Shown here one piece after another: positions 2,473 to 62,586 of a stretch of 64,000 bases of DNA. Under the pieces are notes generated by a model. It did no database searches. It was not told the DNA's origin and saw nothing but the letters and a program-made list of their open reading frames with translations. The position numbers were made by a program, and so were the translations under genes. Source of the DNA: Rhizophagus irregularis (Eukaryota); contig NC_089433.1 of assembly GCF_026210795.1 (NCBI RefSeq), positions 3,596,001-3,660,000 on the forward strand, read 5' to 3'. How positions within the stretch are numbered: position 1 is the first letter of the stretch; each line of letters begins with the position of its first letter.

Positions 2473-3980
2473 ATGGTCACTCAATTTTTTTCGAAATTAA
2501 GTCAAAATTATATTGAATTATTAAAAGATGATGAATATTATGATATTACAATTGAAGTAGGTGAAGATCCCAACGTAAAAATATTTCGTGCTCATAAAAA
2601 TATTTTATGTTACCGTTCTTCATATTTACGACGAATATTAAAGTCTAACAAAAAGAACAATGATAACGTTTTAACCCATATTAAATTATCAAACACATCA
2701 CCGGAAATCTTTCAAATTATATTAGAGTAAGTTAAAAATTATGTTATACAATAACTTTGAATATTCAAATTATAACTTTTATTTTTATAATTAGGTATAT
2801 TTATGGAGGTATTCTTTCATCGGATGAAAAGGATACTTTAAACCTTCTTAAAGTTTTGGCTACTGCAGATAAGCTTAGTCTTCAAGAGCTAGTTGATTAT
2901 TTACAAGGATATTTAATTGAAAATAAGTCCGAACTGCTAGAACAATATTTTGAATTTGCTCAACAAATTAGCTCAAATTCTAATAATTTATTTAAACTCC
3001 AAGAATTTTGTACTAATTTAATGGTTCAGTCTCCCGAAAAAGTACTTAAATCATTAAATTTTACTTCACTTTCCGAAAAATCTTTAATTTCGATTATTAA
3101 AAATGATGATTTACAAATGAAAGAAATTGAAGTATGGGAACATGTATTAAAATGGGGACTTGCCCAAAATCCAACTCTCATTCTAGATCCTAAAACTTGG
3201 TCTGATGATGATTTTAAAACAATGAGTAATACTCTACAACATTGTTTACCCTTCGTTAGATTTTTTTGTTTATCATCAAAAGAATTTTCACAAAAAGTTC
3301 GTCCATATCAAAAACTCCTAAATCAACAACTTTATGAAGATTTATTAAACTTTTATTTAGAACCTGATAGTGTATCATCTCAAAACGTTCAAGTCCCTAG
3401 AAAAATAAAAATTAATGAAAAGATTGAAGAAGTTATTTGTTCACGAATCGTTAATTCTGGTATTGTTTCAACAATTTCAAGATGGATAGATAAAATAACT
3501 ATTGATGATAACAATTTTAATGAATCATATTTACCATATAAATTTGAATTATTGTTAAAAGGAAGCCGAGATGGATTTACCCCTAAAAAATTTCATGAAT
3601 TATGTGATAATAGACTTAAAACTGTTACGTTTATTAAAATAAAAGGAACAGAAGAAATTATTGGTGGATATAATCCTGTAATATGGGAATCTTCTGTTAT
3701 TTGGGGTGAAACCAAAGATAGTTTTATCTTTTCTTTTAAAAATAAGAATAACATTAAAGATGCAATTTTGAGTTATATAAAAATTTCTGGGCATGCAATA
3801 GCTAATCACCCTGAAGTTGGACCAAAGTTTGGCCATGATATCATTATAGGCGCTCAAAATGCATTTACAGATTATGATGTCGCTCAATGTAAGAAGCATT
3901 ATTATGAAAAAAAGATAAGAGATAGTGAAGGTGAATTTATTATAGAAGATTATGAAGTGTTTCAAATAATAAAGAAATAA
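2473..3980 (+). CDS. BTB/POZ-BACK-TLDc domain protein (intact; intron 2727-2794)
   Basis: Exon 1 has the BTB motif DITIEVGEDPNVKIFRAH. GT-AG intron restores frame. BACK motif EIEVWEHVLKWG; TLDc motifs LLLKGSRDGF and IIGGYNP; C-terminal DYEVFQI. Confidence 0.92.
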
Positions 3981-4126
3981 AATGTAGTATTTAAAGGATG
4001 AATTTTATTTGTGGCAAAATTAGAATAAATACTGTACAGTATTTATGGTACACATTGTATGTATCATTGTAACAAAGAAATCAATAAATTATTGCTATAT
4101 TTACGTAACTAACTCTCGTTATTAAA

Positions 4127-4527
4127 TAGAGATTCCGTTTGAAATTGGGTTATTCAAATGTTCATTTATAAATTAAGTAAATTAGGATATTCGAATTTTG
4201 AGATTCGAATCTGTTACGAAATTCGAAATATACTGAGATTCAAATGTTTCGATCGTAAAATACAATGCAAAATGCATTTTTTTAATTTTTTCATCCAATA
4301 AATAAAATTATAATAAAATCCATAATATGTAAAAGAAAAATAGTCTAAACACACACAATCACACATACTGTAATATTAAAATACTTTAAAACTATAAATT
4401 CGAATGTTCATTTGAGATTTGAATATCATGTGAGATTCGATAAACATTCACTGAGAATTTGAGATAGAATTTACATATTATATAATTTTCAGATATTCGA
4501 ATTTCGGACTTTAAAGTGGAAACTCTA
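4127..4527. mobile_element. Degenerate hAT-like MITE
   Basis: Termini TAGAGATTCC / GGAAACTCTA, many internal TTCGAA-type repeats, and imperfect 8-bp flanks ttattaaa/tcatgaaa. Confidence 0.5.
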
Positions 4528-4859
4528 TCATGAAAAATATATCTAAATTAAAATTTACATGTAAAGCGTAAGAGAATGAATTATATTCATCTAAACGAAA
4601 ATATCACAATTAATGTAATTTGTTATAATTAATATATTCCATTTTTTTGTCCTTTAATAAATTTCTGTAATAGTAGTACAAATGAAATAATTTTATCCTT
4701 TGTAATAAATTACAATTTATCTTAACTATAGAGAGGTAGACTGTTCCTATTTTGGAAGTAAAGACTGTCATCATCTGCAAGTTGGCGTACGTACTGCTTA
4801 ACCATATATGATATCTGAAACAAACTATAAATAATTTTTTTTTTAAAAAAAAAGAAAAA

Positions 4860-6366
4860 ATGGTTACTCGATTTTTTTCGAAATTAAGTCAAAATTATAT
4901 TGAATTATTAAAAGATGATGAATATTATGATATTACAATTGAAGTTGGTGAAGACCCTGACGTAAAAATATTTCGTGCTCATATGAATATTTTGTGTTAC
5001 CGTTCTCCGTATTTACGACGAATAATAAAGTCCAACAATAAGAACAATGATAACGCTTTAGCTCATATTAAATTATCAAACACATCACCGGAAATCTTTC
5101 AAATTGTATTAGAGTAAGTTAAATATTATGCTATGCATAACTTTTGAACATTCAAATTATAATTTTTATTTTTATAATTAGGTATATTTATGGAGGTATC
5201 CTTTCATTGGATGAAAAGGACACTTCAGACCTTCTTAAAGTTTTGGCTACTGCAGATAAGCTTAGTCTTCAAGAGCTAGTTGATTATTTACAAGGATATT
5301 TAATTGAAAATAAATTCGAACAGCTAGAACAATATTTTGAATTTTCTCAACAAATTAGCTCAAATTCTAATAATTTATTCAAACTTCAAGAATTTTGTAC
5401 AAATTTAATGGTTCAGTCTTCCGAAAAAGTACTTAAATCATTAAATTTTATTTCACTTCCTGAAAATCTTTAACTTTGATTATTAAAAATGATGATTTAC
5501 AAATGAAAGAAGTTGAAGTATGGGAACATGTATTAAAATGGGGACTTGCCCAAAATCCAACTCTCATTCTAGATCCTAAAACTTGGTCTGATGATGATTT
5601 TAAAACAATGAGTAATACTCTACAACATTGTTTACCTTTCGTTAGATTTTTTAGTTTATCACCAAAAGAATTTTCACAAAAAGTTCGTCCATATCAAAAA
5701 CTCCTAAATCAACAACTTTATGAAGATTTATTAAACTTTTATTTAGATCCTGATAGTGTAACATCTCATAACATTCAACTTCCTAGAAAAATTAAAATTA
5801 ATGAAAAGATTGAAGAAGTTATTTGTTCACTAATCATTAATTCTGGTATTGTTTCAACTATTTCAAGATGGATAGATAAAATAGTTATTAATGATGACAA
5901 TTTTAATGAATCATATTTACCATATAAATTTGAATTATTATTAAGAGGAAGTCGAGATGGATTTACTCCTAAAAAATTTCATGAATTATGTGATAATAAA
6001 CCTAATACTGTTACATTTATTAAAGTAAAAGGAACAGAAGAAATCATTGGTGGATATAATCCATTAGAATGGGAATCGTCTGTTATTTGGGGTGAAACAA
6101 AAGATAGTTTTATTTTTTCTTTTGAAAATAATAAGAATTTTAAAGATGCAATTTTGAACAAAGTAGTAAATTCTGATCGTGCATTATGGTTCAGCTATAC
6201 AACTGGTCCATATTTTGGTAACGATATTAATATAATTGCTTTAAATCATTATACAGATTATGTCACCATTAAGTATTGTAAAAGGTTTTATGAAAAAAAG
6301 ATAAGAGATAGTGAAGGTGAATTTGCTATAGAAGATTATGAAGTGTTTCAAATAATAAAGAAATAA
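4860..6366 (+). pseudogene. BTB-BACK-TLDc paralog with a 1-nt frameshift near 5463-5467 (pseudogene or homopolymer sequencing error)
   Basis: Close paralog of 2473-3980; GAAAAATCT becomes GAAAATCT, splitting the ORF. Confidence 0.75.
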
Positions 6367-6985: not shown

Positions 6986-9095
6986 ATGAGCACATCTGAA
7001 AACTACATTGGTCAAAATGGTAAATCTTGTAAATTGTATTTTAATTATAATATTAATAATTATTCAAATCTTTCAATCTTACTATTTTCAATCTTTCTAG
7101 CCATTATCTCTTATTTTAAAAATAGTAATAGTAATAAGACAACAAAGTCATATTTAGGGTTCTTGAAAAATCACCATGATATTATTATTACTTCAATTGC
7201 TACTACTACAACTCTTTTAGACAATTGGAACAAACTTGATAATTATTGGGCTGTCCATTTTTTGAGAGAAGGAAAGAGAGAAGGAAATGATTTTCTTGAT
7301 TTAAAAAATAAGGTGTGTTTTTTTTTTATTTTGCATAAGTTAGGGTAACCCCTAAGCAACTACGCTTACCTTAGGGAATTTACTGGGTTCGACAACCTTG
7401 GTAACCACTCCAAGTTTCTCAATTCAGGTGTCCTAACTTCTGTTGTTGATATAAGTCTGCTAATTCTGGAGGAGGAATTGGCTATGTACCTTCTTCTATC
7501 CTAAATAAAATTTAAACACACTACTAACAATGTCTTTCTTATAACAGGTGACTGCAGAACGATTACGTTATGCAAAAACATTAAAAATATTCTGGCAAAA
7601 AATTATTAAGAAATATGAAAAAAATTCAATATCTGCTCATTCTGCTGAAAAAGAAAATTTAGTACCTGCTAATTCTTCACATTCACAAAATATCATTGAG
7701 AATTCTGATAAAAATCATTTTATTCCTATTGAAAATCAATCCATTTTTAATTCATCTCATTCTTCTAATTCGTCTCATTCAAAAGAAAACATTGAAATTC
7801 CTATTAAGGATCATTCTATTTCTACTACTAAAGATCATTTCATTTTTACTAAAGATCATTCTATTTCTACTGAAAATCATTCTAAAAATTCTCAACTTAT
7901 CAATTTCTGTTATGATATTCTTCAGGAACTTGATATTAAATCTAATATTCATCCATTTTATGAATATAATGAAGAGAAAATTTCGAATAAATTTATAAAA
8001 AATCCTATGGATTTATTTACAATAATTTCAAAATTAAAAAATAATCAATATGCAAGTATTGAAGAATTTGAGAATGATATTCGTCTTATATTTCGTAATT
8101 GTTATATATATAATGATATAGGAAGTGAAATGCATATTTTAGGAGAAGAATTAGAATCAACTTTTAATAAGATCTGGACTGAAAAAATTGGTATTCAAGT
8201 TAAACAAAAAGAGAACTTAAAAAGAACACGAGATAATGATACTGATTTATCTTTTGGTAATTATAATAATAATATTTTTTTATTTTTATTATTCATTTAT
8301 TCATTAATTTTTTTGTAATTATTTATTTATTTACTAGAACTTGTAACAAAACAAATTAAAATTTTAGAACAAAACAGAGATAAGTTAGTATATGGACAAG
8401 TTGTGAATGATGCTCTTCTTATTATTTCAGCATATGAAAATCTTGTTGCTGATAATATTATACCTTTTATTGAACTTTTAAAAACATTCTTATTAACGAG
8501 ATCACAGATATCATTATCTTCTGCTGATGAATCTGTTCTTCAAGCAATTGTTGAAAACCTTTTACCATTAAAATATTGTATTCCTGAATTATCACTAGTA
8601 ATGGATGGTACAAAATTAAAAGGATTTGGTCGATTTGGATATTCAGATATTTTTATCTTAAAAGGAATAGGAAATAATAATATTAGTTTGGAATTAAAGT
8701 ATATTTCATTAATTGGATTAATTAAAAATCAAAAAAAAAAGTTTAATACAAATGATTTAGAAAATTTAGATAAAATTATCGAAAAAGAAGATGAAACAAT
8801 TCTACTAAAAAGATCATATGAATATTGGTCAAAAGAATATAATGAAACTAAAAAAATAACTATAGAAGAAGTATTAAATAATGGAATTAATCAATTAAAA
8901 TCATATATGAATATTATTTCAAAAGGAAAACCAATTGATTATTATAGTTCAGGAATATTTGATAAAAGAATTAAAATAACTAAATCAAATCCTAATAAAT
9001 TAAGAGGATTTGTTGTATTAGTAATTGGTTTTCGACGTATTTTATGGAGATCTGTAGAAGAAATAACATCTAATTATTCATATGAAAAAATTTAA
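6986..9095 (+). CDS. Four-exon protein: N-terminal helical domain + bromodomain + C-terminal PD-(D/E)xK-like nuclease (exons 6986-7019, 7101-7312, 7548-8256, 8338-9095)
   Basis: All three introns are GT-AG and the frame is continuous after splicing. Bromodomain signature KNPMDLFTIISKLKNNQYASIEEFENDIRLIFRNCYIYN. Nuclease-like motifs PEL...GYSDIFIL...SLELKY...QLKSY. Confidence 0.8.
7313..7547 (+). ncRNA. Structured intron RNA, copy A (intron 2 of the bromodomain-nuclease gene)
   Basis: GTGTG...TACTAAC...AACAG intron; several helices show compensatory changes relative to the copies at 61.5-62.6 kb. Confidence 0.75.
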
Positions 9096-13134: not shown

Positions 13135-14260
13135 AAAGAAATTTGAAGATATGTATCACTAGTAACAATTACATTAAATATAAATTTTTTTTTAAAAAAA
13201 AAAAATTCCATAGCCAATAAGCATAATTTATGGTTAAATTCTACGGCAGATCCATTTCTATCAAACGCGATGCATTTGTCAAAACATACATATTATTTAT
13301 AACATATCATGCATAATATGTTTCAATGTGTTTTATCATATTGAAATCACCTTTAATCTCTTAAGCTATATATGTCTAATTTCTAATTTCTAATGATATA
13401 ATTTTAATCAATATTATACCATACCTATTGACAAAATGATTAAGTTCAGTCAATATGATAAAGAATAGATTGGATTATTATAAAAGTAGTGTTAATTTTT
13501 TTTCATTTTGATATCTCAATGTGTCAGTTTGAGTCATACTATCCACAAATAATTTTTTTTATTTAAGACATTAAACTCTCATCAATTTCTCATCAATATT
13601 TTTTTTATAATATCAATTTTTAAACACAATAATCAATTTTTTTTGCCAATTTCAATATGAGCATATCTGAAAACCACATTGGTCAAAATGACTGTATTTA
13701 ATTTGTAACTTATTATAATATTAATAATTAATCAAATCTTTTAATTATCTCTTAAAATCATATCTAAAAGTCACTGTGATATTATTATTACTTCGAAAGA
13801 AATGATTTTCCTGATTAAAAAGATAAGGTGTGTTTTTTTTTATTTTGCATAAGTTAGGGTAACCCCTAAGCAAATCCGTTTACCTTAGGGAATTTACTGG
13901 GTTCGACAACCTTGGTAACCACTCCAAGTTTCTCAATTCAGGTGTCCTAACTTCTGTCGTTGATATAAGTCTGCTAATTCTGGAGGAGGAATTGGCTATG
14001 TACCTTCTTCTATCCTAAATAAAATTTAAACACACTACTAACAATGTCTTTTATATAACAGGTGACTGTAGAATGATTACATTATGCAAAAATATTGAAA
14101 TGTGAAGTAACTTCAGTATCTGCCGAAAAAGAAAATTTAGTACCTGCTAATTCTTCCCATTCACAAAATATCATTTTATCAATTTGAACTTGATATTAAG
14201 TTTAATATTTATCCATTTTATGAATATGATGAAGAAGAAATTTCAAATAAAATTATTAAG
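13135..14260 (+). pseudogene. Decayed duplicate of the upstream region and 5' part of the bromodomain-nuclease gene
   Basis: Matches about 6390-8000 (ATGAGCATATCTGAAAAC..., GAAAAAGAAAATTTAGTACCTGCT). Has large exonic deletions, loss of the first donor site, and stops. Confidence 0.85.
13828..14061 (+). ncRNA. Structured intron RNA, copy B
   Basis: Nearly identical to 7313-7547; the few substitutions fall mainly in a hairpin loop and outside the main helices. Confidence 0.75.
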
Positions 14261-18677: not shown

Positions 18678-20426
18678 TTAAAACCAGAATTCCGAATCCT
18701 TCAATAAAGGAGAACGAATTTCCAATATTCCTTCTTCAATATACTTTGTTAGAGAATTCATATCATCCCAATCATCATAATAATCACATGATTTACTAAC
18801 AAAATCAAGTTCGGAGTTTGAATCTTTAAACCTTTCATGATGATAAAAATCCAAATCATTGAAATTTCTTTGATAACCATATTGAGAATCCGAATAATCT
18901 GAACCTTCATAATCAGAATCAAAATTATCTACATCAAAAGAATCACAATCATCACTTCTTTTAAGACGACCTATAATACCAATATAGATAACTCTAAAAG
19001 GAGCGACAGATTGTCGTTGTTTCAAAAAGTTTTCCAAAGTACATTTTAATAATTCCCAATCACCTTCTATTATGAAATTAAATATATTACGTGGAGCATA
19101 TTCTCCAAGTATGTTGAGAACGTCATAAGTATCACACGCATCAAATTTTTCCTCAACGAAATTAAGACGAAGATTAACTAATTTTTTGCAACGTTTACAG
19201 AAATTCATTAATTGTGATTGATTTGCTGGATCGATAGAACTTTGGAATGAGATTATATTTGGACAATTATTTGCCACAGCTTCTAATATTAAACCAGATT
19301 GTTCATTATCAACATTATTTTCTATTTCTAATTTAATATCAGTTAATTTCCCACCATTGTGTCTAATAAATTTTGATATTTTACTTAAATCTAATGAAGT
19401 TGCTTTGATATATAATTTTGTAAGTTTTCTAAATTTATACATTGTTAACTTTTCTTCTATATCATGAGGCATATCATCAACGAAACATAAAGATAATTCT
19501 TCTAAATTTTCACAATTTCGAAAAGTGTCGAATGGAACGCCTTGAAAACCAAAAATCCTTAATTTAGTTAAAGATTTAACTTGTTTTTCTAACGCTTTAC
19601 CAATTTCTTTACATTCATATTGTAAATCATCATCATCTTTATCATTACAAATAAATTCTACACGACGTAAAGATTGTTGAGTTTTAATGAATTCTGATAA
19701 ACCATTACAACCATCAAAATATTCTGGTGCGGATTGAATTTTAAGGGTATCCAAATTTGTTATTAATTGAGAAAATACGAAAAAAAGTTGATCGGTCGTA
19801 AAACCTGCCGAACATTCAAATTCTCGAATATTTGAAAATAAATTATTAGGAGTAGTAAGTAAATAAGTGAAATTAAATACTGGTAATTGCTCAGAATCCA
19901 TATCCATTAAATCTTCAACGCAACGAATTTTTGTGATATGAGGACACTTATTAACGATAACTCTATACATTTCTTGTTCCATAAGATAACATTGAAATCT
20001 AGTTTTACCACTATGTTTTCCACTACGGAATAACCAAAATGATACAGCTAAACTAAATCTTACTATATCAAAAGTATTAATAAATTCTAAATAATTAAAC
20101 ATAGGTTTTTTGGTATTACTTTTTGGTAATTTTACTCCATTTCGAATTAATAAAGAACGTGATTCTTCAGGTAATTGGTTAATAAATGCACATAATAATC
20201 CTAATGCTTGTTCCCTTTCTTCTGTTTCGGTTTCAACATTATTATCATATAGACTTAATGCATCCGTCTTCTTTATTAGCATCGCCAAAGGATCTTTCCA
20301 TAGAATTTGCACGGCACTTTCACACCACATTCTATTAACCAACATACAATGATATAATGAGTTATTATCATCAGGAAAGCACTTAAAAATTTCTCCAAGA
20401 CAATCCGAGATTAGACCGATTGTCAT
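18678..20426 (-). CDS. F-box domain / LRR (RNI-like) protein
   Basis: 582-aa single ORF. N-terminal F-box LISDCLGEIFKCF...LYHCMLVNRMWCESAVQILW, then LxxLxL repeats and an acidic C-terminus. Confidence 0.88.
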   Translation of the reverse strand: MTIGLISDCLGEIFKCFPDDNNSLYHCMLVNRMWCESAVQILWKDPLAMLIKKTDALSLYDNNVETETEEREQALGLLCAFINQLPEESRSLLIRNGVKLPKSNTKKPMFNYLEFINTFDIVRFSLAVSFWLFRSGKHSGKTRFQCYLMEQEMYRVIVNKCPHITKIRCVEDLMDMDSEQLPVFNFTYLLTTPNNLFSNIREFECSAGFTTDQLFFVFSQLITNLDTLKIQSAPEYFDGCNGLSEFIKTQQSLRRVEFICNDKDDDDLQYECKEIGKALEKQVKSLTKLRIFGFQGVPFDTFRNCENLEELSLCFVDDMPHDIEEKLTMYKFRKLTKLYIKATSLDLSKISKFIRHNGGKLTDIKLEIENNVDNEQSGLILEAVANNCPNIISFQSSIDPANQSQLMNFCKRCKKLVNLRLNFVEEKFDACDTYDVLNILGEYAPRNIFNFIIEGDWELLKCTLENFLKQRQSVAPFRVIYIGIIGRLKRSDDCDSFDVDNFDSDYEGSDYSDSQYGYQRNFNDLDFYHHERFKDSNSELDFVSKSCDYYDDWDDMNSLTKYIEEGILEIRSPLLKDSEFWF

Positions 20427-22438
20427 TTTGATGTTATATTTAGTTTATAATATTTATTATTATTAAAAGAAAAACTTTTTTTTTTTTTGTTAAAAAAGAA
20501 AAAAAAAAATTATGTGCGGGGAAAAAAATGTGCGGTAGAAAAAAAAATTTTTTTTTTTTTTTTTTATTTTCACAAGAGACGCTTCAATCGGGATATGGAG
20601 TTAAGTTATTTTTTGTATTACATGTAAATTTTCACACATTACATTACTTGTTAAAAGTAGCACTAAACTGCAAATAAAATTATACATATATATTTTTTTT
20701 TTACTAAATTTATAATTATATCCCCTTTTTTCTTTTCCATTTTGATATTTTCTTTGTCTGTTTTAGGGAAGAAGGTCATATAAAAATTTTGAAAAAAACT
20801 GCAAGAATCAAGTTTCTATTGGGAGAACTTTACCGTATATAAGCGGTAAATATTGTAAACATTCACTTTATTAATATAATTGTGTTCATCAACTAAATTT
20901 ACATTTAACTTGTGTAACCTGGATAACTAATTTAAGATTAAATTAAATAATAAATATTGCAAAATGAGAGTAATAAAGATGCAAGATGCAACCCAAAAGT
21001 GTTACAAAGATGAAAAAACTTTATCTCATCAAAATTTTCACATGTTCGAATGTAGGTTCCATTGTTAAATAAAACATTTTTTATCGTATTACCGCAGCAT
21101 TTAAAACTTTGAAACCTTTTTTTTTTTTTTGGATTAATTAGAGAAAATTTCCAAGAATTTTTTTCAAAAATTTCAATAAATGATGTCAAAAAAAATAATT
21201 GAATATTGACATATGCAAATTGGCTGAATTACTTTCTATGAGCCCAAAATGTTATTCATTTTAAAATATGCACAATATACATTTCTTTTTTTTTCCCCTC
21301 ATCCCCCTCATCCCCCTCATCAAAAGATAAAAAAATGAAAAAAAGTATTGATAGATAAACCGGTAAATGTTTGATGTTTGTCTTCAAAGGGATAATGTTT
21401 TTGGTTAAATTGACTCATAGTAAAAAAAAGGAGTTTATCAAAATTTGTGTAATCAGTTCGTGTTGCAATATAAATACTACATCATAAATTGATGATCATG
21501 TACCGTGTGTGCATATTTTTAAAATTAACAAAAAAATAACAGGAATTTTAAGTTTAAATTTCAAATAATTTTGATAGCTATTACACGTGATTTAATAAAA
21601 AACTTGAAATTTGTAACACTCTAATATTTCAAGAAATTCCGGATTATCTGCAAACTTAAATCCAATAAAATTCTTCAACTCTAAAATTAGAAAATTCTAA
21701 ATTTGATACGAAAAACTTGATGAATAGTAACAATTATATTTGCAGTATTAAATAATTCAAAATTAACCGGTTAACTGGCTATACTTAATTCCGGCTTAGA
21801 ATTTGTCTATATTTCGTCGTCAATTCCAACTTTCGAACATTATTAACTTATTATAAGTTTATATATTTATTATAAGCAAGTTTTGAATGTCAAAAAGTAT
21901 CGTGGCGTGATTAACCACAGATGATTTACGTTAATTGAATTTTATTTATATAATTTTATTTTTGTTCGATCTAATAATGTAATAATTATTAAATATTATA
22001 TGAATTTTCTTTTAAAGTATAATTATTAAAAATATTTTCGATAAAAAAATTTCTTTTGAAAAATAATTTGCAGAGATTTAGGAACTTATTAAAAAAAAAA
22101 AATAATTATTATAACATATCCAGAATATTTGTATAACTAATAATAAAAGGAACGGAAGAAATTTTTTGTTGGACGTGTCACATACACTCATACAGTATCA
22201 AGTATATAAAGTATTTATTAATCACAATCAAAAAATTCAGTAGACTTTTTACTTATATGGAGCTGTTAGAATTGTTTATTGGGAACAGTTAAATTGGGAT
22301 TTCAGAATTAAACCTTATTCAAATTATATAATCATTTTTTGAATATCGTAATACTTGTAAAATTAAGCATTCACAACAATTCTGTTTTTTAATAATCAAT
22401 AAAATATTATTCAATATATAAATTAGACTTTCATACTA

Positions 22439-28359: not shown

Positions 28360-29885
28360 ATGTCCGCCGAATTTTTCTCAAAATTAAGTCAAAATTATAT
28401 TGAATTATTAAAAGATGATGAATATTATGATATTACAATTGAAGTTGGTGAAGATCCTAATGTAAAAATATTTCGTGCTCATATGAATATTTTATGTTAT
28501 CGTTCTCCATATTTACGACGAGTTTTGGCTTCTAACAAAAAAGAAGATAACATTTTATCTCACATTAGATTACCAAATATATCACCGGAAATTTTTCAAA
28601 TTATTTTAGAGTAAGTTCTAATTTTATATTATCCATACAATAACCTTGAAGAATCAAATTATTAACTTTAAATTTTTCGTAATACAGATATATATATGGT
28701 GGTATTATTTCTTTAAGTGGACAGGATACTTCAGACATTCTAGATGTTTTGTTGGCTGCAAATGAGCTTTGTTTTCAGGAACTAGTTGATTATTTACAAA
28801 AATATTTAATTGAAAATAAATCTGAGTGGATGAAAGAAAATTTCGAATTTACTCAACGAATCAGTTCACAATCTAATAATTTAGTGGACCTTCAACATTT
28901 TTGTACAGATTTTGTTGCTAAATTTCCTGAAAGAATACTTAAGTCGCTTTATTTTACTTCACTTTCCGAGAAATTGTTGATTTCACTCATTAAGAGGGAT
29001 AATTTACAAATGAAAGAAGTTGAAATTTGGGAACATGTATTAAAATGGGGTCTTGCACAAAATCCTACTCTCGTTTCAGATCCTAATGATTGGTCAGATA
29101 ATGATTTTAAAACAATGGAGAATACTTTGCAATATTGCCTACCATTTGTTAGACTTTTTAGTTTATCATCCAAAGAATTTTCAGATAAAGTTAGACCATA
29201 TCAAAAGCTTTTTAAACGTCAATCTTATGAAGATCTATTAAATTCTTATTTGGATCCTTATTATGAACCAAGTGACAGTATCTCACTTCCTAGAAATATT
29301 GAAATAGATGGAATTATTGATTCAAAAATTGTTAATTTAAATATTGTTTCAATTATTTCAAGATGGATTGATAAAGTAGATGTTAATTGTAAATTTTCTC
29401 ATTTAAGAGAATTATATTTACCATACGAATTTCAATTATTGATAAGAGGAAGCCGAGATGGATTTACTCCTAGAAAGTTTCATACTTTATGTGATAATAA
29501 GCATAATACAGTTACATTTATTAAAGTAAAGGATTCAGAAGAAATTCTTGGTGGATACAATCCAATAACATGGATGAATGTTAATTCTTGGGGTGAAGCT
29601 CAAAATTGTTTTATTTTTTCTTTTAAAAATAGAAGTAATTTTAAAGATGCAATTTTGAGTATTGTAAAATATACAGACAACGCGTTGAATTATCATCCTG
29701 ATCATGGCCCATTCTTTGGCAATGACCTTATAATATATACATCTGAAGAATCTAAAGATTCAGCTGATATAGATTTTGATACGACAAAAGTTTGTAATGA
29801 AACATCTTGTTACGAAAAAAGTATAAGGGAAGGAGGGGAATTTCTAATGGAAGATTATGAAATCTTTCAAATTATAAAAAGATAA
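28360..29885 (+). CDS. BTB/POZ-BACK-TLDc protein (intact; intron 28611-28687)
   Basis: Same motifs as gene 1; frame is continuous after splicing. Confidence 0.92.
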
Positions 29886-30238
29886 ATAGTATTTTTTTTA
29901 TTTTGTTTCTTCGTATCTATACAATATGTAATTTTTATTAACTTTTCCTGGAATAAGCAGTAAAAATGAAACGTGGTATATTGTAAATAAAATTATATAC
30001 CTTATTTATTTTTCGTTTTTTTTTTCATTCTCGGTATAATTTATATTTACTATTCAACTGAAATTATTCAAATTTATCATTTGAACATTAGCTACAGTAT
30101 ATGTAAGTGCTTATGGCGACTATGCGTTAGTTAAATGCACATCAATATTTTAATTTAGCCATTTTTGAAATAATTATATTACAAATGGAGTAATTTATCG
30201 CCAATATTTTTGATCGATTTTTTTTTTACTTTTAAATT

Positions 30239-31756
30239 ATGTCTGCCGAATTTTTTTCGAAATTAATTCAAAATTATGTTGAATTATTGGAAGATGATGA
30301 ATATTATGATATTACAATTGAAGTTGGCGAGGATCCTAATGTAAAAATATTTCGTGCTCATATGAATATTTTATGTTATCGTTTTTCATATTTTCGGCGG
30401 GTTATAGCTTCTAATAAAAAGGACAACGTTTTAGCTCATATTAAATTTATAAAAATATCACCGGAAATCTTTCAAATGATTTTGAGGTATTTTATAATTT
30501 TTATATAAAATACATTTAAAACATTTTTTTTAAAATATTTATATTTTATTAACTGGATTTGTGATATAGGTATATTTATGGTGGTATTCTTTCGTTAAAT
30601 GAACAAGAAAATTCAGATTTTCTTAAAGTATTGGCTGCTGCGGATGAACTTCGTCTCCAAGAACTAGTTGATTATTTACAAAAATATTTAATTGAAAATA
30701 AGTCCGAATGGATGGAAGAAAATTTTGAATTTACTCAACGAATCAGCTTACAATCTAATAATCTGGTGGAGCTTCAACAATTTTGTGTAGATTTTATTGC
30801 TAAATCACCTGAAAAAAATATTTAAACCACTTTATTTCACTTCGATTTCTGAAAATTTTTTAATTTCACTTATTAAGAGAGATGATTTACAAATGAAAGA
30901 AATTGAAATATGGGAGCATGTATTAAAATGGGGACTTGCACAAAATCCCACTCTCGTTACAGATCCTAATGTTTGGTCAGATGATGATTTTAAAACAATG
31001 GAAAATACCTTGCAACATTGTCTACCTTACGTTAGACTTTTTTGTCTATCATCAAAAGAATTCTCACAAAAAGTTAGTCCATATAAAAAACTCTTAAATA
31101 AACAACTATATGAGGATTTATTAAATTCTTACTTGGATTCTGGTCGTGAACCGATTGAAGACATTTCATTGCCTAGAAACATTGGAAATATTGAAATTAT
31201 TGATTCAAAAATTGTTAATTTAAATATTGTTTCAATTATTTCAAGATGGATTGATAAAGTTGATGTTAATTATAACTTTTCTCATTTAAGAGAGTTATAT
31301 TTACCATATAAATTTCAATTATTGATAAGAGGAAGCCGAGATGGATTTACTCCTAAAAAGTTTCATACTTCATGTGATAATAAACATAATACTGTTACTT
31401 TTATAAAAGTAAAGGATTCAGAAGAAATTCTTGGTGGATATAACCCTCTAAAATGGGAATCTTCTGATACTTGGGGTAAAACTAATGTTAGTTTTATTTT
31501 TTCTTTTAAAAATAAGAATAATTTTAAAGATGCAATATTGAGTATTATAAAAGATACAAACAACGCGTTGAATTATCATTCCATATTTGGTCCATGTTTT
31601 GGCAAAGATCTTTTAATGTATACATATATAGGTGCAGCTGATATAGATTTTGATATGACGGAAGTTTGTAGTGAATATTACGAAAAAAGAATAAGAGAGG
31701 AAGGCGAATTTCTGATGGAAGATTATGAAATCTTTCAAATTATTAAAAATAAATAG
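30239..31756 (+). pseudogene. BTB-BACK-TLDc paralog with a +1 frameshift in an A-run near 30812-30818
   Basis: GAAAAAAATA versus GAAAAAATA in paralogs; could be a sequencing error. Confidence 0.75.
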
Positions 31757-32068
31757 TATTTTTTTTTTTCTTATTTTGTTTTCTTCGTATCTATGCAATA
31801 TGTAATTTCTTTTGGAATAGTCAGTAAAATGTAACATGACATATTGTGAAATAAAATTATAAACCTTATTTTTCATACAGATTATTACATAATAATTTTA
31901 TATTCAAAATATTCAAATTTTATCATTATTTATAAATGTGAACCAGCTACATATCATGACATCAATATTTAATTTAACCATCTTTGAAATAATTATATAT
32001 TAGTTTAACGACCGATATTTAATTTGATCGTCTTTTCATGGTATCTTGTTTTTTAAAAATTATGAATT

Positions 32069-33583
32069 ATGTCTGCCGAATTTTTTTCAAAATTAAGTCA
32101 AAATTATATTGAATTATTGAAAGATGATAAATATTATGATATTACAATTGAAGTTGGTGAAGATCTTAATGTAAAAATCTTTCGTGCTCATATGAATATT
32201 TTGTGTTATCGTTCTCCATATTTACGACGAGTTTTGGCTTCTAACAAAAAAGAAGATAACATTTTATCTCACATTAGATTACCAAATATATCATCGGAAA
32301 TTTTTCAAATTATTTTAGAGTAAGTTCTAATTTTATATTATCCATACGATAACTTTGAAGATCAAATTATTAACTTTAAATTTTTTGTAATTCAGATATA
32401 TATATGGTGGTATTATTTCTTTAAATGAACAGAATACTTCAGACATCCTAAATGCTTTGTTGGCTGCAGATGAGCTTTGTCTTCAGGAACTAGTTGATTA
32501 TTTACAAATATATTTAATTGAAAATAAATCCGAGTGGATGAAAGAAAATTTTGAATTTACTCAACGAATCAGCTCACAATCTAATAATTTAGTAGAGCTT
32601 CAAAAATTTTGTGCAGATTTTGTTGCTAAGTCTCCTGAAAGGATATTTAAGTCGCCTCATTTTACTTCACTTTCTGAAGAATTTTTGGTTTCACTCATTA
32701 AGAGGGATGATATACAAATGAAAGAAGTTGAAATTTGGGAACATGTATTAAAATGGGGTCTTGCACAAAATCCTTCTTTCGTTGCAGATCCTAATGTTTG
32801 GTTAGATAATGATTTTAAAATAATGGAGAACACTCTGCAACATTGCCTACCGTTTGTTAGACTTTTTAGTTTATCATCCAAAGAATTTTCAGATAAAGTT
32901 AGACCATATCAAAAGCTTTTTAAACGTCAATCTTATGAAGATCTATTAAGTTCTTATTTGGATCCTTATTATGAACCAGGTGACAGTATCTCACTCCCTA
33001 GAAATATTGAAATAGATGGAATTATTGATTCAAAAATTGTTAATTTAAATATCGTTTCAATTATTTCAAGATGGATTGATAAAGTAGATGCTAATTGTAA
33101 CTTTTCTTATTTAAGAGAATTATATTTACCATACAAATTTCAATTATTGATAAGAGGAAGTCGGGATGGATTTACTCCTAGAAACTTTCATACTTTATGT
33201 GATAATAAACATAATACAGTTACATTTATTAAATTAAAGGATTCAGAAGAAATTCTTGGTGGATACAATCCAATAATATGGATGAAATTTGATTCATGGG
33301 GTAAAACTCAAAATAGTTTTATTTTTTCTTTTAAAAATAAAATAATTTAAAGGATGCAATTTTGAGTATTGTGAAAGATACAAATGGCGCGTTGAATTAT
33401 CATAACGAACATGGTCCATGCTTTGGCAAAGACCTTTTAATATATACATATGAAGATTCTGCTGATATAGATTTTGATCTTACAGAAGTTTTTACTGATG
33501 AATATTACGAAAAAAGTATAAGAGAAGAAGGCGAATTTCTGATGGAAGATTACGAAATCTTTCAAATTATAAAAAATAAATAG
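32069..33583 (+). pseudogene. BTB-BACK-TLDc paralog with a frameshift near 33340
   Basis: ORF stops at 33350 and the TLDc tail continues in another frame (33362-33583). Confidence 0.78.
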
Positions 33584-33913
33584 TATTTTTTTTTCTTATT
33601 TTGTTTTTTCGTATCTATGTAATATGTAATTTTTATTAACTTTTCCTGGAATAAGCAATAAAAATGAAACGTGGCATATTGTAAAATAAAATTATAAACC
33701 ATATTTATTTTTTTTTTTTTCATTCTTATATTTACTATTCAAATTATTCAAATTTATCATTTGAACATTAGCAAGTACTTATGACGATTATGACGTATAA
33801 ATGCACATCAATATTTAATTTAGCTATTTTTGAAATAATTATATTACAAATGGAGCAATTTATCGCCAATATTTTGATCGATTTTTTTTTTACTTTTAAA
33901 ATAATTATAAATT

Positions 33914-35419
33914 ATGTCTGCCGAATTTTTTTCGAAATTAATTCAAAATTATGTTGAATTATTGGAAGATGATGAATATTATGATATTACAATTGAAGTT
34001 GGTGAAGATCCTAATGTAAAAATATTTCGTGCTCATATGAATATTTTATGTTATCGTTCTTCATATTTTCGACGGGTTATAGCTTCTAATAAAAAGAAGG
34101 ACAACGTTTTAGCTCATATTAAATTTCCAAATATGTCACCGGAAATCTTTCAAATTATCTTGAGGTAATTAATTTATAATGTACATTAATTTATCATTAT
34201 TTATATTTTATTAACTGGATTTGTGATATAGGTATATTTATGGTGGTATTCTTTCGTTAGATGAGCAAGAAACTTCAGATTTTCTTAAAGTATTGGCTGC
34301 TGCGGATGAGCTTCAACTCCAAGAACTAGTTGATTATTTACAAAAATATTTAATTGAAAATAAGTCCGAATGGATGGAAGAAAATTTTGAATTTACTCAA
34401 CGAATCAGCTTACAATCTAATAATTTTGTGGAGCTTCAACAATTTTGTGCAAATTTTATTGCTAAATCACCTGAAAAAATATTTAAATCACATTACTTCA
34501 CTTCGATTTCTGAAAAATTTTTAGTTTCACTCATTAAGAGAGATGATTTACAAATGAAAGAAATTGAAGTATGGGAACATGTATTAAAATGGGGTCTCGC
34601 ACAAAATTCAACTCTCATTTCAGATCCAGATACTTGGTCAAATGATGATATTAAAACGTTGAAAAATACTCTACAACATTTTTTACCTTTGATGAGACTT
34701 TATAGTTTATCATCAAAAGAATTCTCACAAAAAGTTCGTCCATATAAAAAACTCTTAAATAAACAACTATATGAGGATTTATTAAATTTTTACTTAGATT
34801 CTGATCGTGAACCAACTGAAAACATTTCATTGCCTAGAAGTATTGGAATTGATGGAATTTTTGATTCGGAAATTGTTAATTTAAATATTGTTTCAATTAT
34901 TTCAAGATGGATTGATAAAGTTGATGTTAATTATAAATTTTCTCATTTAAGAGAATTATATTTACCGTATAAATTTCAATTATTGATAAGAGGAAGGATG
35001 AGTTTACTCCTAAAAAGTTTCATACTTTATGTGATAATAAATGCCATACTGTTACCTTTATAAAAGTAAAGGATTCAGAAGAAATTCTAGGTGGATATAA
35101 CCCTTTAAAATGGGAATCTTCTAGAACTTGGGGTAAAACCAATGCTAGTTTTATATTTTCTTTTAAAAATAAGAATAATTTTAAGGATGCAATATTGAGT
35201 ATTATAAAAGATACAAACAACGCATTGAATTATCATTCCATATTTGGTCCATGTTTTGGCAAAGATCTTTTAATGTATACGTCTACAGGTTCAGCTGATA
35301 TGGATATTGATGTGACAAAAATTTATAATGAACAAAATTATTACGAAAAAAGTATAAGAGAAGGAGGAAATTTTCCAATGGAAGATTATGAAATCTTTCA
35401 AATTATAAAAGATAAATAG
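33914..35419 (+). pseudogene. BTB-BACK-TLDc pseudogene with a small deletion in the GSRDGF motif (about 34995)
   Basis: AGAGGAAGGATGAGTTTACT versus AGAGGAAGCCGAGATGGATTTACT in paralogs; a non-homopolymer lesion. Confidence 0.85.
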
Positions 35420-35766
35420 TATTTTTTTTTTCTTTCTTATTTGTTTCTTCGTATCTATGCAATATGTAATTTTTTTTAATAAACACTTTCCTGAAATAGT
35501 CAATAAAATGAAACATGACATATTATGAAATAAAATTATAAACCTTTTTCACTTTTTCATTTTTCAATACCATATCATTGCTTATATTTAATATTCAAAT
35601 TATTCAAATTTATCATTATTTATAAATGAGAACCAGCTACAGTCAAGTTATGACGTAGTAAATGCACATCAATATTTAATTTAACCATTTTTGAAATAAT
35701 TATATATTAGTTCAACACCCAATATTTAATTTGATCGTCTTTTTCTTATTTTTAAAATTATAAAAT

Positions 35767-37490
35767 ATGTCCGCCGAATTTTTTTCAAAATTAAGTCAAA
35801 ATTATGTTGAATTATTGGAAGATAATGAATATTATGATATTACAATTGAAGTTGGTGAGGACCCTAATGTAAAAATATTTCGTGCTCATATGAATATTTT
35901 ATGTTATCGTTCTCCATATTTTCGGCGGGTTATGGCTTCTAATAAAAAGAAGGACAACGGTTTAGCTCATATTAAATTTCCAAATATATCACCGGAAATC
36001 TTTCAAATTATTTTGAGGTATTTTATAATCTTTTATAACATACATTTAAATATTTATATTTTATTAACCGGATTTTTGATATAGATATATTTATGGCGGT
36101 ACTCTTTCGTTAAATGAGCAAGAAACTTCAGATTTTCTTAAAGTATTGGCTGTTGCGGATGAACTTCGTCTCCAAGAACTAGTTGATTATTTACAAAAAT
36201 ATTTAATTGAAAATAAGTCCGAATGGATGGAAGAAAATTTTGAATTTACTCAACGAATCAGCTTACAATCTAATAATCTGGTGGAGCTTCAACAATTTTG
36301 TGTAGATTTTATTGCTAAATCACCTGAAAAAATATTTAAAACACTTTATTTCACTTCGATTTCTGAAAATTTTTTAATTTCACTTATTAAGAGAGATGAT
36401 TTACAAATGAAAGAAATTGAAATATGGGAGCATGTATTAAAATGGGGACTTGCACAAAATCCCACTCTCGTTACAGATCCTAATGTTTGGTCAGATGATG
36501 ATATTAAGACGTTGAAAAATACTCTACTACATTGTTTACCTTTGGTGAGATTTTTTAGTTTATCATCAAAAGAATATTCACAAAAAGTTCGTCCATATAA
36601 AAAACTCTTAAATAAACAATTATATGAGGATTTATTAAATTCTTACTTAGATTCTGATCGTGAACCAACTGAAAACATTTCATTGCCTAGAAATATTGGA
36701 AATATTGGAAATATTGGAATTATTGATTCAAAAATTGTTAATTTAAATGTTGTTTCAATTATTTCAAGATGGATTAATAAAATTGATGTTAATCATAAAT
36801 TTTCTTATTTAAGAGAATTATATTTACCATATAAATTTCAATTATTGATAAGAGGAAGCCGAGATGGGTTTACTCCTAAAAAGTTTCATACTTTATGTGA
36901 TAATAAACATAATACTGTAACCCTATAAAAAATTTTTATCCGAATATTTCCATTATTTCTCCGTGTCTTCCGTAAAAATTCCGTGAAAATGATACATTCA
37001 CGGATATCCGTGTTAGCGAGATGAAAATTTCCATGATTTAAGGCTATTAATTCCATGAAAATGATACATTCACGGAAAAAACATGGAAAGATAAAACACG
37101 GATCAGATTTTTTACAGGGTAACTTTTATAAAAGTAAAGGATTCAGAAGAAATTCTTGGTGGATATAATCCAATAATATGGTCGAATTCTAATTCTTGGG
37201 GTAAAACTAAAACTAGTTTTATTTTTTCCTTTAAAAATAAGAATAATTTCAAAGCTGCAATTTTGAGTATTGTAAAAAGTACAAATAACGCGTTGAATTA
37301 TCATCCTGGTCATGGCCCATGCTTTGGCAACGACCTTTTAATATATACATCTGACGAATCTGAAGATTCGGCTGATATGGATTTTGATGGGGCGGAGGTT
37401 TATGATGGAGCAGAATGTTATGAAAATAGTATAAGAGAAAAAGGTAAATTTCCAATGGAAGATTATGAAGTATTTCAAATTATAGAGTAA
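35767..37490 (+). pseudogene. BTB-BACK-TLDc gene interrupted by a MITE in the TLDc domain
   Basis: Removing 36921-37119 plus one TAA restores N-T-V-T-F-I-K-V-K. Confidence 0.9.
36921..37119. mobile_element. MITE with CCCT...AGGG termini and a 3-bp TSD (TAA)
   Basis: CCCTATAAAAAAT / ATTTTTTACAGGG; TAA on both sides; TCCGTG/CACGGA internal repeats; the empty site is defined by paralogs. Confidence 0.92.
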
Positions 37491-38156
37491 TTGGTATATT
37501 TATTTTGCAATAGCAAATTTGTAAAATAATAACCAGGATGATATTATATATGCTTACTTAGTCAATGAACCAAACATTAGTCATTATTAATAAATTTTTT
37601 ATGATTTTATTAATGATGAATATTGTAAAAATTCTCGTGAATATTCCCAATAAAATGTGTTATAACAGAGGAAGATTTTACTGTTTCAGCATAAATCCAA
37701 ATCAGTTATTATTTGAGAATTTTTTATGATTAGGCCATTCCAACTAGATTGTTTGTTTAATGTACCCTTATATTTTTTTAAATTTTGATAATGTATAACA
37801 TGTACATGCATGTTTAAAATATCCATTTAAATTATAAATTTTCTGAAGTTTCCAAAATTTATTTCATTTAGTTTGTTTAATGAAAACCCCCTCCCCCTCA
37901 AACTTTCAGAAATCTGGACGTTGAACAAACAGAACAGTCCTATTAATAAAAATTTACGGGTGTTTCAACACGTATCACGTGACCATATAAAAAAAAAATT
38001 AATACAGAATATTAATTTAGGTGACTTGTAAAGTTGTTGTAATACATCCGTGACTTCAGGTAATTCTTTGTTATTATATTCACCGTTACATAAATATAAA
38101 TTACATAAATATAATAATGAGAATTCGGTTTGAGTTTTTCATTTGCGCAGTCGTCG

Positions 38157-38698
38157 AGGACCCAGAAATATATATACAGGGGTAGGGTACACAGATGCGT
38201 CGCCATCATAGTGGAATTAGACGGAGTAAAGTTTTGATTAGCGTACAATTTAAGAATTTTTCATCCATAGTTAGGCCATCAAGATTGCGTATTTTTATCA
38301 AAATTTTTATATGTAAAAAATTAGTTTGCGTATTTTTGGCCTAAATTTGGCTAATCTTATATATATAATATATTCACTGTACGTTAGTAATATTTAGTAT
38401 TAAATGAAAGAAATTTCTAAGGGTTAAAAAGTGAAATTTTAGAAAATTATTATTGAAAAAATGGTAAATTAGAATAAATTCTATCTTTTCACATTAGTAT
38501 TTGGTTTATAAATAATATAGAAGTCATAATAAAATAATTAATAACTTAATACCTGAAATTTTATTTGCATGATTTTCAATATCAGGTGTATCAGGTGTCA
38601 ATTATGCGTACTAGTACTCATATAAAAAGTCTCTGCGTACAGCTCATAGTAAAAAAAATTTTCGCCACCTGACCCTTATATATATATTTCTGGGTCCT
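38157..38698. mobile_element. Non-autonomous TIR element with AGGACCC termini
   Basis: TIR AGGACCCAGAAATATATATA / TATATATATTTCTGGGTCCT with a perfect 8-bp TSD AGTCGTCG. Confidence 0.92.
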
Positions 38699-39198
38699 AG
38701 TCGTCGTGTTGGAATTTTCCTATGAAATAAGGAGCGTTAATGACTGTCAAACGTAGCCGCAAATATATTGTATTTAATTTTATTTTTAATATATAGACAA
38801 AACCGGAACCTTAGCTATCTACTGTAAGCAGTACGAATTACAAAAACGAAACACGCTAAAATAAAACTAAGTTGTTTAACCCCAAGGAACTGGATAGGAG
38901 CCGCTCTGCCAAATTATTCTAGGAACCCTAGGCGTAGCCGGATTAACCACCAAAACCAGACTGATATTGTATTTAAGACGTTTATTGTTTAGCGAAAGTA
39001 AATCAATTTTATCACGTGACAATTTTTGTTCCACGCTGCTTATAGACTTGTGCTAATTTGCTAATTTGCATAAATACACATCAATATTTAATTTAACTAT
39101 TTTTGAAGTAATTATATATCACAAAATGGCAAAATGGCTAGTATTTAATTTTGATCGCCTTTTCCTCATTTTTTTTTTTATTTTTAAAATTATAAATT

Positions 39199-61516: not shown

Positions 61517-61918
61517 CTATTATGAAAAAGAAAAATTATTAATAGTGTGCTAAATTTTTATTTAATCATAAAGAAGACATAGCCAATTCCTCCTTTAGAA
61601 TTAGCAGACTTTACTAATAACAAAGTAGGATGTTATCTGCTTGAGTTGGTTATCAAGTGAACAAGAGAAATAAAAAAAAAATAAAAAAAAGAAAAAAAAA
61701 GAAAAAAAGGGAATAAAAAATATAAAAATAAAAATAAAATAAAAAAGAAAAAGCAGGTAATTTCATAGGAATTACCCACTTTGCTCACCCTTACCCAACC
61801 CAAACAAATAAATCCAGTACCCTCCTAAGTAAAATTTGTGAACTCCCCGACTCATTGAGTTATCCGTTCTAATTTTGACTTAGGAAGTTACCCACTTTGC
61901 AAATAAAAAAATACACAC
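61517..61918 (-). ncRNA. Structured intron RNA, copy C (long form)
   Basis: GTGTG...ATAG on the minus strand. Shares the helices and a 33/35-nt block with copy A; the flanking exons are decayed. Confidence 0.72.
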
Positions 61919-62196
61919 CTCTTTAAAGTCTCTTAATAAGCCATTTACACTTATCTAAAAATCAGTAATGCTTTATTCAGAGAATTTTCATCTGTTGTCC
62001 AGTATTTCAATACAAAATAATGCTGTGATTGATGAATAATTAAATATAATTCAATAATAAGAAATCAGATAACAAATATGAAGTATAAACATAAAAAAAA
62101 TTTTTCACATTTTTAACACTTGATATGCACTCTTTTTCAAGAATTCCTCTAGGAAATTTCTTCATTTTACCGGTGATTGTAAATCTCTGCATTTAC

Positions 62197-62586
62197 CTAT
62201 TATAAGAAAGAAAAATTATTAATAGTGTGCTAAATTTTTATTTAATGGTAAAGAAGACATAGCCAATTCCTCCTTTAGAATTAGCAGACTTTACTAATAA
62301 CAAAGTAGGATGTTATTTGCTTGAGTTGGTTATCAAGTGAACAAGAAAAATAAAAAAAAAAATAAAAAAAGAAAAAGGGAATAAAAAAAATAAAAATAAA
62401 AATAAAATAAAAAAGAAAAAGCAGGTAATTTCATAGGAATTACCCACTTTGCTCACCCTTACCCAACCCAAACAAATAAATCCAGTACCCTCCTAAGTAA
62501 AATTTGTGAACTCCCCGACTCATTGAGTTATCCGTTCTAATTTTGACTTAAGAAGTTACCCACTTTGCAAATAAAAAAATACACAC
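62197..62586 (-). ncRNA. Structured intron RNA, copy D (tandem duplicate of C)
   Basis: Nearly identical to C apart from poly-T length and a few substitutions. Confidence 0.72.

What the first reader, a model, noticed from the sequence alone, without database searches (positions are those of the whole stretch)
7313..7528. 5' splice site is base-paired to the sequence immediately before the branch point
Seen: the intron begins GTGTGTTT...TTTTATTT, and AAATAAAATTTAAACACAC (ending 7521) lies directly before the branch consensus TACTAAC (7522-7528). C and D keep this arrangement (GTGTGTA...TTTTATTT / AAATAAAAATTTAGCACAC followed by TATTAAT). The other introns resolved here start GTA; this one starts GTGTG, which also matches the group II 5' consensus GUGYG. 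Inference: the closing stem could occlude U1 binding (a switch) or bring donor and branch A together. If the intron is retained, the frame stops at 7348, giving a truncated product without the bromodomain and nuclease, which would be a way to restrain a toxic nuclease.
Basis: partly seen in the sequence, partly recalled or inferred. Interest (0 to 1): 0.78.

Follow-up and report, generated by a model that had tools for sequence, protein, structure and literature searches.

The report
Folded intron guarding a nuclease family
A large family of likely DNA-cutting genes in a root-symbiotic fungus carries, at the same spot, an intron that is better conserved than the coding sequence around it and is predicted to fold back so that it hides its own start signal, which likely lets it control whether the full protein is made.

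Summary
The 235-nt intron (7313-7547) starts GTGTGT and is predicted to pair with ACACAC directly before the branch box, in 4 of 4 copies in the window. One contig of an RNA-guess run skips it exactly. The stem is only the outer helix of a six-helix RNA. The helices show compensatory and strand-specific changes, and Rfam has no match. The intron sits at one fixed K|V junction in the N-terminal domain of a Rhizophagus gene family (at least 120 proteins; bromodomain plus likely PD-(D/E)XK nuclease). Its core also appears in one Gigaspora protein record. It differs by 2.6% between copies whose exons differ by 10-18%, even in broken copies. The most conserved part is an inner hairpin (7453-7487), not CACAC, which varies. 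It fails the tests for a group II intron, zipper stem, snoRNA and introner. Best reading (0.4): a splicing lock; retention gives a 93-aa product. Main rival (0.3): the excised lariat is itself a functional RNA. Regulation was not shown.

The parts
7313..7547 (+). Structured spliceosomal intron, copy A (235 nt, phase 0, at the K82|V83 junction)
   Evidence: (exact GT..AG joint in one contig)
7313..7320 (+). P1 5' strand = the donor GUGUGU(UU); predicted to pair with 7514-7521
   Evidence: pair probabilities 0.94-1.0
7514..7521 (+). P1 3' strand, ending directly at the branch box
7324..7331 (+). P2 5' strand (UUUUAUUU); pairs with 7503-7510 (AAAUAAAA)
   Evidence: identical in 4 of 4 copies
7333..7443 (+). 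Inner domain: P3 (7333-7345/7431-7443), P4 hairpin (7350-7356/7370-7376, variable loop), P5 with hairpin P5b (7397-7414, loop UAACCA)
   Evidence: C-G to U-A in P4 and G-C to A-U in P5b between A/B and C/D; P3 pairs only 0.53-0.65
7453..7487 (+). Most conserved block: hairpin P6 (7459-7467/7474-7482) with invariant flanks
   Evidence: 33 of 35 nt identical A vs D; forced 7463G-7478C in 3 of 8 peptides, 1 break
7346..7348 (+). In-frame stop reached on retention (93-aa product)
7486..7491 (+). Internal donor-like site GTACCT at the base of P6; use would leave 173 nt (out of frame, stop included)
   Evidence: gene predictors use it in several paralogs; no RNA joint
7522..7528 (+). Branch box TACTAAC, branch A inferred at 7527; predicted unpaired from 7523
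6986..9095 (+). Host gene, 570 aa: helical N-terminal domain, bromodomain, likely PD-(D/E)XK nuclease
   Evidence: nuclease inferred from E391 52/52, D422 51/52, E437-x-K439 49/52 and an Atlas lead
13828..14061 (+). Copy B, in a broken paralog (stops and deletions)
   Evidence: 6 of 234 differences from A
61517..61918 (-). Copy C (402 nt), in a broken gene fragment
62197..62586 (-). Copy D (390 nt), in a broken, distant family member
   Evidence: exon-3 flank ranks 3 of 271 AG|GT sites; missed

Best explanation
This is a spliced intron, conserved at one junction across a large fungal gene family of likely nucleases, whose RNA is predicted to fold into six helices and likely works as a timed lock on its own splicing. 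Shown: the intron, its fixed position, its conservation above the exons, and the stop on retention. Predicted: the donor stays mostly open while the intron is transcribed and is sealed once the CACAC strand emerges about 200 nt later, so U1 must load first or the stem must be opened. Inferred: a protein binding the invariant inner hairpin P6, most simply the family's own product, would tip the balance to retention (or to the internal donor at 7486), giving a 93-aa header-only product or nonsense-mediated decay, and so limiting nuclease output from many paralogs at once.
For: P1 covers donor positions -1 to +8 while branch box and 3' site stay open. Closing duplex -12.0 to -13.2 kcal/mol against -6.2 to -8.2 for a U1 5'-end duplex (U1 motif recalled). 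Mean unpaired probability of +1..+6 is 0.38-0.80 for transcripts ending at 7342-7507 and 0.0 from 7522. Of 24 intronic substitutions shown, 14 are unpaired, 7 keep a pair, 3 break one; all 7 transitions in stems keep pairing on the sense strand (expected share 0.55, p 0.015), only 3 of 10 on the other strand. Compensatory changes in P4, P5b and P6. The intron lies upstream of bromodomain and nuclease, and both retention and the internal donor are non-productive. Unspliced contigs across a splice site in X18 and X20. Precedents: RPL7B autoregulation (PMC12311795 abstract), fungal TPP riboswitch (PMC3597705 abstract).
Against: No regulation, ligand or binding protein was shown. The four runs are only guessed to be RNA, X13 looks like DNA, and X19 also holds an unspliced piece of intron 1, so unspliced contigs may be DNA or pre-mRNA. 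The intron stays nearly unchanged in broken copies, where a cis lock has no use: C-D 10 of 390 against 18 of 101 in exon 2 (p 2.5e-7); A-B 6 of 234 against 20 of 207 (p 0.002). P1 has a C.A mismatch at +4 in 2 of 2 full read-through peptides, costs only 1.9 kcal/mol to open in D, and loose ends suggest P6 also occurs in introns without P1 (flanks not linked with certainty). One of 8 peptides breaks a P6 pair.
Confidence: 0.4

Rival explanations
1. The intron is a non-coding RNA gene housed in the family. After splicing, G+1 is joined to A7527, and P1 would close the lariat into a sealed rod that escapes debranching and acts in trans, for example as partner, inhibitor or guide of the nuclease.
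For: P1 ends exactly at the branch box in 4 of 4 copies, a geometry that cannot persist in the spliceosome but suits the excised lariat (inference). Conservation in broken hosts with splice signals intact. Invariant loop and flank sequences exceed what a plain occluding stem needs. P3-P5 sequence in a Gigaspora rosea record. Stable intronic RNAs exist in yeast (PMC4937481 abstract).
Against: No back-joint or lariat junction (contigs only, low cover). Human Dbr1 prefers canonical A branch sites and donors with G at two positions (PMC10312976 passages), so sequence alone does not predict stability. The 11 nt before the branch A are not C-rich. High depth on P6 is summed over paralogs and is no measure of expression.
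Confidence: 0.3
2. The intron is a mobile or homing element (introner-like, or copied among paralogs by gene conversion); paired ends serve its spread, and likeness among copies reflects recent copying.
For: Paired ends and stable folds typify fungal introner-like elements and sister stwintrons (PMC3609843, PMC8469720 passages). The C-D identity block runs 28 nt into exon 3 (1 of 28 different), like a conversion tract. Many contigs match P6 with unlike flanks, some in tandem. The host of the Gigaspora record is unclear.
Against: All copies whose host could be read sit at the same junction: 19 of 154 stored proteins read into the intron right after it (found through the host, so biased), and D's flank scores as family exon 3. 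The residue after the junction varies (V, I, L, A, F), so no fixed AGGT duplication. The 3' repeat stops 26 nt short of the intron end. An introner survey lists 0 families in 20 Rhizophagus and 4 Gigaspora assemblies (the companion pipeline filters out paralogous introns).
Confidence: 0.15
3. A degenerate group II intron domesticated to spliceosomal removal, with P6 as a relic of domain V.
For: Donors read from peptides are V-R 11, V-C 4, V-H 3, I-R 1 of 19, compatible with GUGYG (+3 is not determined). Multi-helix core.
Against: No Rfam match at E up to 10; no AGC/CGC triad at the P6 base, AG end and a TACTAAC box 20-22 nt from the end. The three donor classes are also what CG to TG/CA decay of GTNCGT would give (inference).
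Confidence: 0.04
4. Neutral: an AT-rich intron folds by chance and is shared through recent duplication.
For: Whole-intron z-score is only -2.1, 7 of 200 shuffles fold as well. Only two independent sequence types are fully read (A/B, C/D).
Against: Intron far better kept than exons (A-D local score 114 against 14 and 22), compensatory changes, strand-specific pair keeping.
Confidence: 0.06

Closest known systems
Yeast autoregulated ribosomal-protein introns (RPL7B; RPL30 and RPS14B as cited in PMC4937481)
   Same: Conserved intron structure that decides splicing; retention is non-productive (PMC12311795 abstract).
   Different: Here the donor itself is the stem strand, the host is a multigene family of likely nucleases, and no binding protein is known.
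Yeast zipper stems (RPS17B type)
   Same: A stem links the 5' region and the region before the branch point.
   Different: Zipper stems leave at least 10 nt after the donor and 20 nt before the branch point and are poorly conserved in sequence (PMC12350175 passages); this stem starts at +1, abuts the branch box, and the sequence is conserved.
Fungal TPP riboswitch introns (Neurospora NCU01977)
   Same: Structured intron, long-range pairing near a 5' site, alternative donors (PMC3597705 abstract).
   Different: No TPP aptamer; there the pairing is beside the donor and promotes its use.
Lariat-derived stable circular introns (ciRNA/sisRNA)
   Same: GU-rich 5' end; 0.1-0.5 kb size (PMC8758631 passages).
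   Different: Canonical A branch, no C-rich element, stability untested.
Fungal introner-like elements and Hypoxylaceae sister (stw)introns
   Same: Multi-copy, longer than usual introns, stable fold, paired ends.
   Different: Those lie in unrelated genes at new positions, and the donor G is often unpaired (PMC8469720 passages); this one is at one homologous junction with G+1 paired.
CR/Crinkler-like proteins (helical header plus REase domain)
   Same: Helical N-terminal domain, likely REase-fold C-terminus, family expansion in Rhizophagus (PMC5289972 passages).
   Different: Bromodomain between the two; membership not tested; no such intron found in the passages read.

Membership tests
U2-type spliceosomal intron | GT..AG ends, branch box, exact removal | tested here: met
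   one contig with the exact joint
Group II intron | 5' GUGYG | tested here: met
   GTGTG in 4 of 4
Group II intron | Domain V with AGC/CGC triad; Rfam group II models | tested here: not met
   no triad at P6 base; no Rfam hit; feature recalled
Group II intron | AY 3' end with bulged A 7-8 nt before it | tested here: not met
   AG end, branch A 20-22 nt upstream; feature recalled
Zipper stem | [quoted passage not shown] | tested here: not met
   P1 starts at +1 and abuts the branch box
Introner / introner-like element | Near-identical copies in unrelated genes | tested here: inconclusive
   all readable hosts share one junction, but no whole genome was held and sampling was host-biased
Introner / introner-like element | Target-site duplication or inverted repeats at the very ends | tested here: not met
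   3' repeat ends 26 nt inside; first exon-3 residue varies
Box C/D snoRNA | RUGAUGA and CUGA boxes | tested here: not met
   0 of 4 copies
Box H/ACA snoRNA | ANANNA in the hinge between two hairpins | tested here: not met
   present in A, B; absent in C, D; no Rfam hit
TPP riboswitch | TPP aptamer | tested here: not met
Stable lariat / ciRNA | GU-rich 5' element and C-rich element near the branch point | tested here: inconclusive
   GU-rich yes; 4 of 11 C in A
Stable lariat / ciRNA | Lariat persists in cells | not testable with these tools
   only contigs were available
Autoregulated intron | Host protein binds the intron and blocks splicing | not testable with these tools
   no protein-RNA tool; Atlas search of the N-terminal domain did not complete
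PD-(D/E)XK nuclease (host) | Conserved E...D...ExK on a helix-strand-strand core | tested here: inconclusive
   residues conserved and secondary structure fits; Atlas rows SduA_C/NucS_C 0.83/0.81 are leads; fold searches were filled by the bromodomain

The most novel reading that the evidence does not exclude
Each nuclease gene co-produces its own RNA partner: the excised intron folds into a sealed lariat that binds and inhibits, or guides, the PD-(D/E)XK nuclease. That would be a eukaryotic toxin with an intron-encoded RNA antitoxin (type III-like), with broken gene copies kept as orphan antitoxin loci.
Probability: 0.12. Interest if true: 0.92.

Novelty: new variant of a known kind. Interest (0 to 1): 0.68.

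Why it matters
Arbuscular mycorrhizal fungi carry large families of likely nucleases whose control is unknown. A shared, conserved RNA placed just upstream of the active domains is a concrete candidate for family-wide control and can be tested with a splicing reporter. It would also be a new structured RNA family: Rfam has no match and my paper searches listed no description of it. A donor paired right up to the branch box is an unusual design that tests how early spliceosome assembly competes with RNA folding.

Tried and rejected
No whole genome was held. Pattern scans for P6 found 0 in metagenome contigs and 0 in viral contigs; a protein scan found 1 locus, L001, which does not reach the intron. 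No RNA holder was listed on record. nhmmer found only the four copies in window plus L001. Plain profile and hhalign (probability 0.15%) did not detect homology of the C/D flanks; a position-anchored score with one X break did for D (3 of 271) but not C (13 of 271). The junction counts were mis-offset and are not used. A coding role for P6 (KSANSGGGIGY in some annotations) was rejected: changes are at first and second codon positions and mostly keep pairs. The single-sequence model of the C-terminal domain was unusable (pLDDT 36); fold and PDB searches returned bromodomains, so the nuclease fold was not tested by structure. No covariance model was built. The Atlas search for the N-terminal domain did not complete. 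Zhang et al. 2016 on CR proteins was not held, so its text and supplements may bear on the host family. Six look-ups of earlier findings gave nothing that bears on this. Two of 14 supplements of PMC12130899 were not searched.

Full report
Observation. The intron is 7313-7547, and the spliced four-exon frame equals database protein P0001, named by its sources as Rhizophagus irregularis. Four copies lie in the window: A, B (13828-14061, +), C (61517-61918, -), D (62197-62586, -). The donor pairs with the strand before the branch box at probability above 0.9 in all four; shuffles do this in 12 of 300 and 1 of 100 cases. One contig of run X19 skips exactly these 235 nt with GT..AG ends, with no differences on the 111-nt exon-2 side (depth 2, RNA status guessed). 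Retention ends the frame at 7346-7348 after 93 aa.

Anatomy. The closing stem (P1, P2) encloses a domain (P3 with hairpins P4 and P5) and a hairpin P6. A/B against C/D show C-G to U-A in P4 and G-C to A-U in P5b with the loop UAACCA kept (under the minimum-energy fold C and D pair the P5b strand elsewhere). P6 and its flanks are 33 of 35 nt identical between A and D, whose adjoining exons share 12 and 16 of 36 nt. Of the 24 intronic substitutions shown (40 rows shown, 46 hidden; mixed paralogs), 14 are unpaired, 7 keep a pair and 3 break one; all 7 transitions in stems keep pairing on the sense strand (p 0.015). Database proteins that read through unspliced introns give a degenerate view of other copies: among 8 covering P6, 3 force the double change 7463G-7478C (two of them share one peptide, so probably two events), 1 forces a mismatch, 1 has changes that can pair, 3 are unchanged. 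Rfam gave nothing at gathering score or of note at E up to 10.

Host and position. The C-terminal search returned 120 proteins, all named Rhizophagus, most with a bromodomain. In the alignment of 123 proteins the junction is mostly K followed by V, I, L, A or F, and annotation breaks gather there (read by eye). Nineteen of 154 stored proteins read into the intron at this junction, as V-R 11, V-C 4, V-H 3, I-R 1. D's downstream flank, read with X at one break, ranks 3 of 271 AG|GT sites, level with B; C ranks 13, and two other methods missed both. A Gigaspora rosea record carries the P3-P5 sequence as peptide (76% identity over 43% of the query); it is a single record and contamination is not excluded. 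The C-terminal domain keeps E391, D422, E437 and K439 in 49-52 of 52 sequences on a helix-strand-strand core; a nuclease is likely but not confirmed by fold search.

What is not constant. CACAC varies: loose ends show TGCAC and CAAAC before the branch box, and both full read-through peptides have C at +4 opposite A. CG decay of an ancestral GTNCGT donor would explain the donor classes (inference). P6 seems the core module, since contigs match it with many unlike flanks (depth there is no copy number or expression value).

Conservation in broken copies. B, C and D have stops or deletions, yet their introns differ by 2.6% within each pair against 10% (A-B exons) and 18% (C-D exon 2). For A-B the drop in divergence follows the intron boundaries; for C-D the block runs 28 nt into exon 3, as a conversion tract would. 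This counts against a purely cis role and for either a free-standing RNA or copying among paralogs.

Mechanism. Opening the donor costs 8-10 kcal/mol in A-C and 1.9 in D; the donor is mostly open until the 3' strand is made. A stem from +1 to the branch box does not meet the zipper definition and could not persist in the A complex (PMC12350175 passages). So P1 either inhibits before splicing or folds after it. I commit to the first at 0.4: a timed lock, with a factor on P6 deciding between full protein and a truncated or decayed product, as in RPL7B autoregulation (abstract) or TPP-controlled donor choice (abstract). The factor, the regulation and the decay are inferred. The second, a functional sealed lariat, gets 0.3; the Dbr1 preferences read do not favour stability by sequence. 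A mobile intron gets 0.15; an introner survey lists none in 20 Rhizophagus and 4 Gigaspora assemblies (supplement), though such pipelines drop paralogous introns. About 0.05 is left for readings not listed.

Papers. Passages were read in PMC3609843, PMC12350175, PMC9860276, PMC12130899, PMC8758631, PMC5289972, bioRxiv 2022.10.19.511543, PMC8469720 and PMC10312976; abstracts in PMC12311795, PMC3597705 and PMC4937481 (with the start of its introduction); supplement rows in PMC12130899 and PMC9860276. Ten searches listed no description of this RNA; the library lacks most subscription papers. Group II, snoRNA and U1 features are recalled.

Verdict. A real, apparently undescribed, conserved structured intron; a new variant of the structured regulatory intron. 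Interest 0.68. Function is untested, and full DNA sequence was available for only four copies of two types.

Noticed in passing
window 2736-6366 and 28683-40709: Cluster of BTB/BACK-TLDc genes: 8 of 15 scanned reading frames hit TLD or BACK.
   Followed up: no
window 59399-60184 (+): 261-aa frame with a weak QRICH1 hit (E 0.0012, below cut-off); QRICH1 is recalled as Crypton-derived.
   Followed up: no
window about 62700-63200 (-): Degenerate stretch upstream of copy D that looks by eye like a Tc1/mariner transposase remnant; not tested.
   Followed up: no
window 61517-62586 (-), inside copies C and D: An internal repeat of the P3/P4 entry motif and a long U-rich tract extend P5; several strong donor-like sites lie inside.
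   Followed up: partly
X18 loose end at 7453: Two P6-like hairpins in tandem, and P6 in what look like short introns with an ordinary GTA donor.
   Followed up: partly
L001 64-1116: A relative (70% identity) matches residues 220-570 over 1053 nt, so it lacks intron 3: cDNA or intron loss.
   Followed up: no
proteins P0147, P0141: The same N-terminal domain occurs on a 528-aa Rhizophagus protein with a different downstream sequence and in Diversispora eburnea.
   Followed up: partly
window 18678-20444 (-): 588-aa frame with no Pfam hit.
   Followed up: no
database annotations of the family: The non-consensus donor misleads gene predictors: 20 of 154 stored proteins carry intron-derived peptides.
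   Followed up: yes
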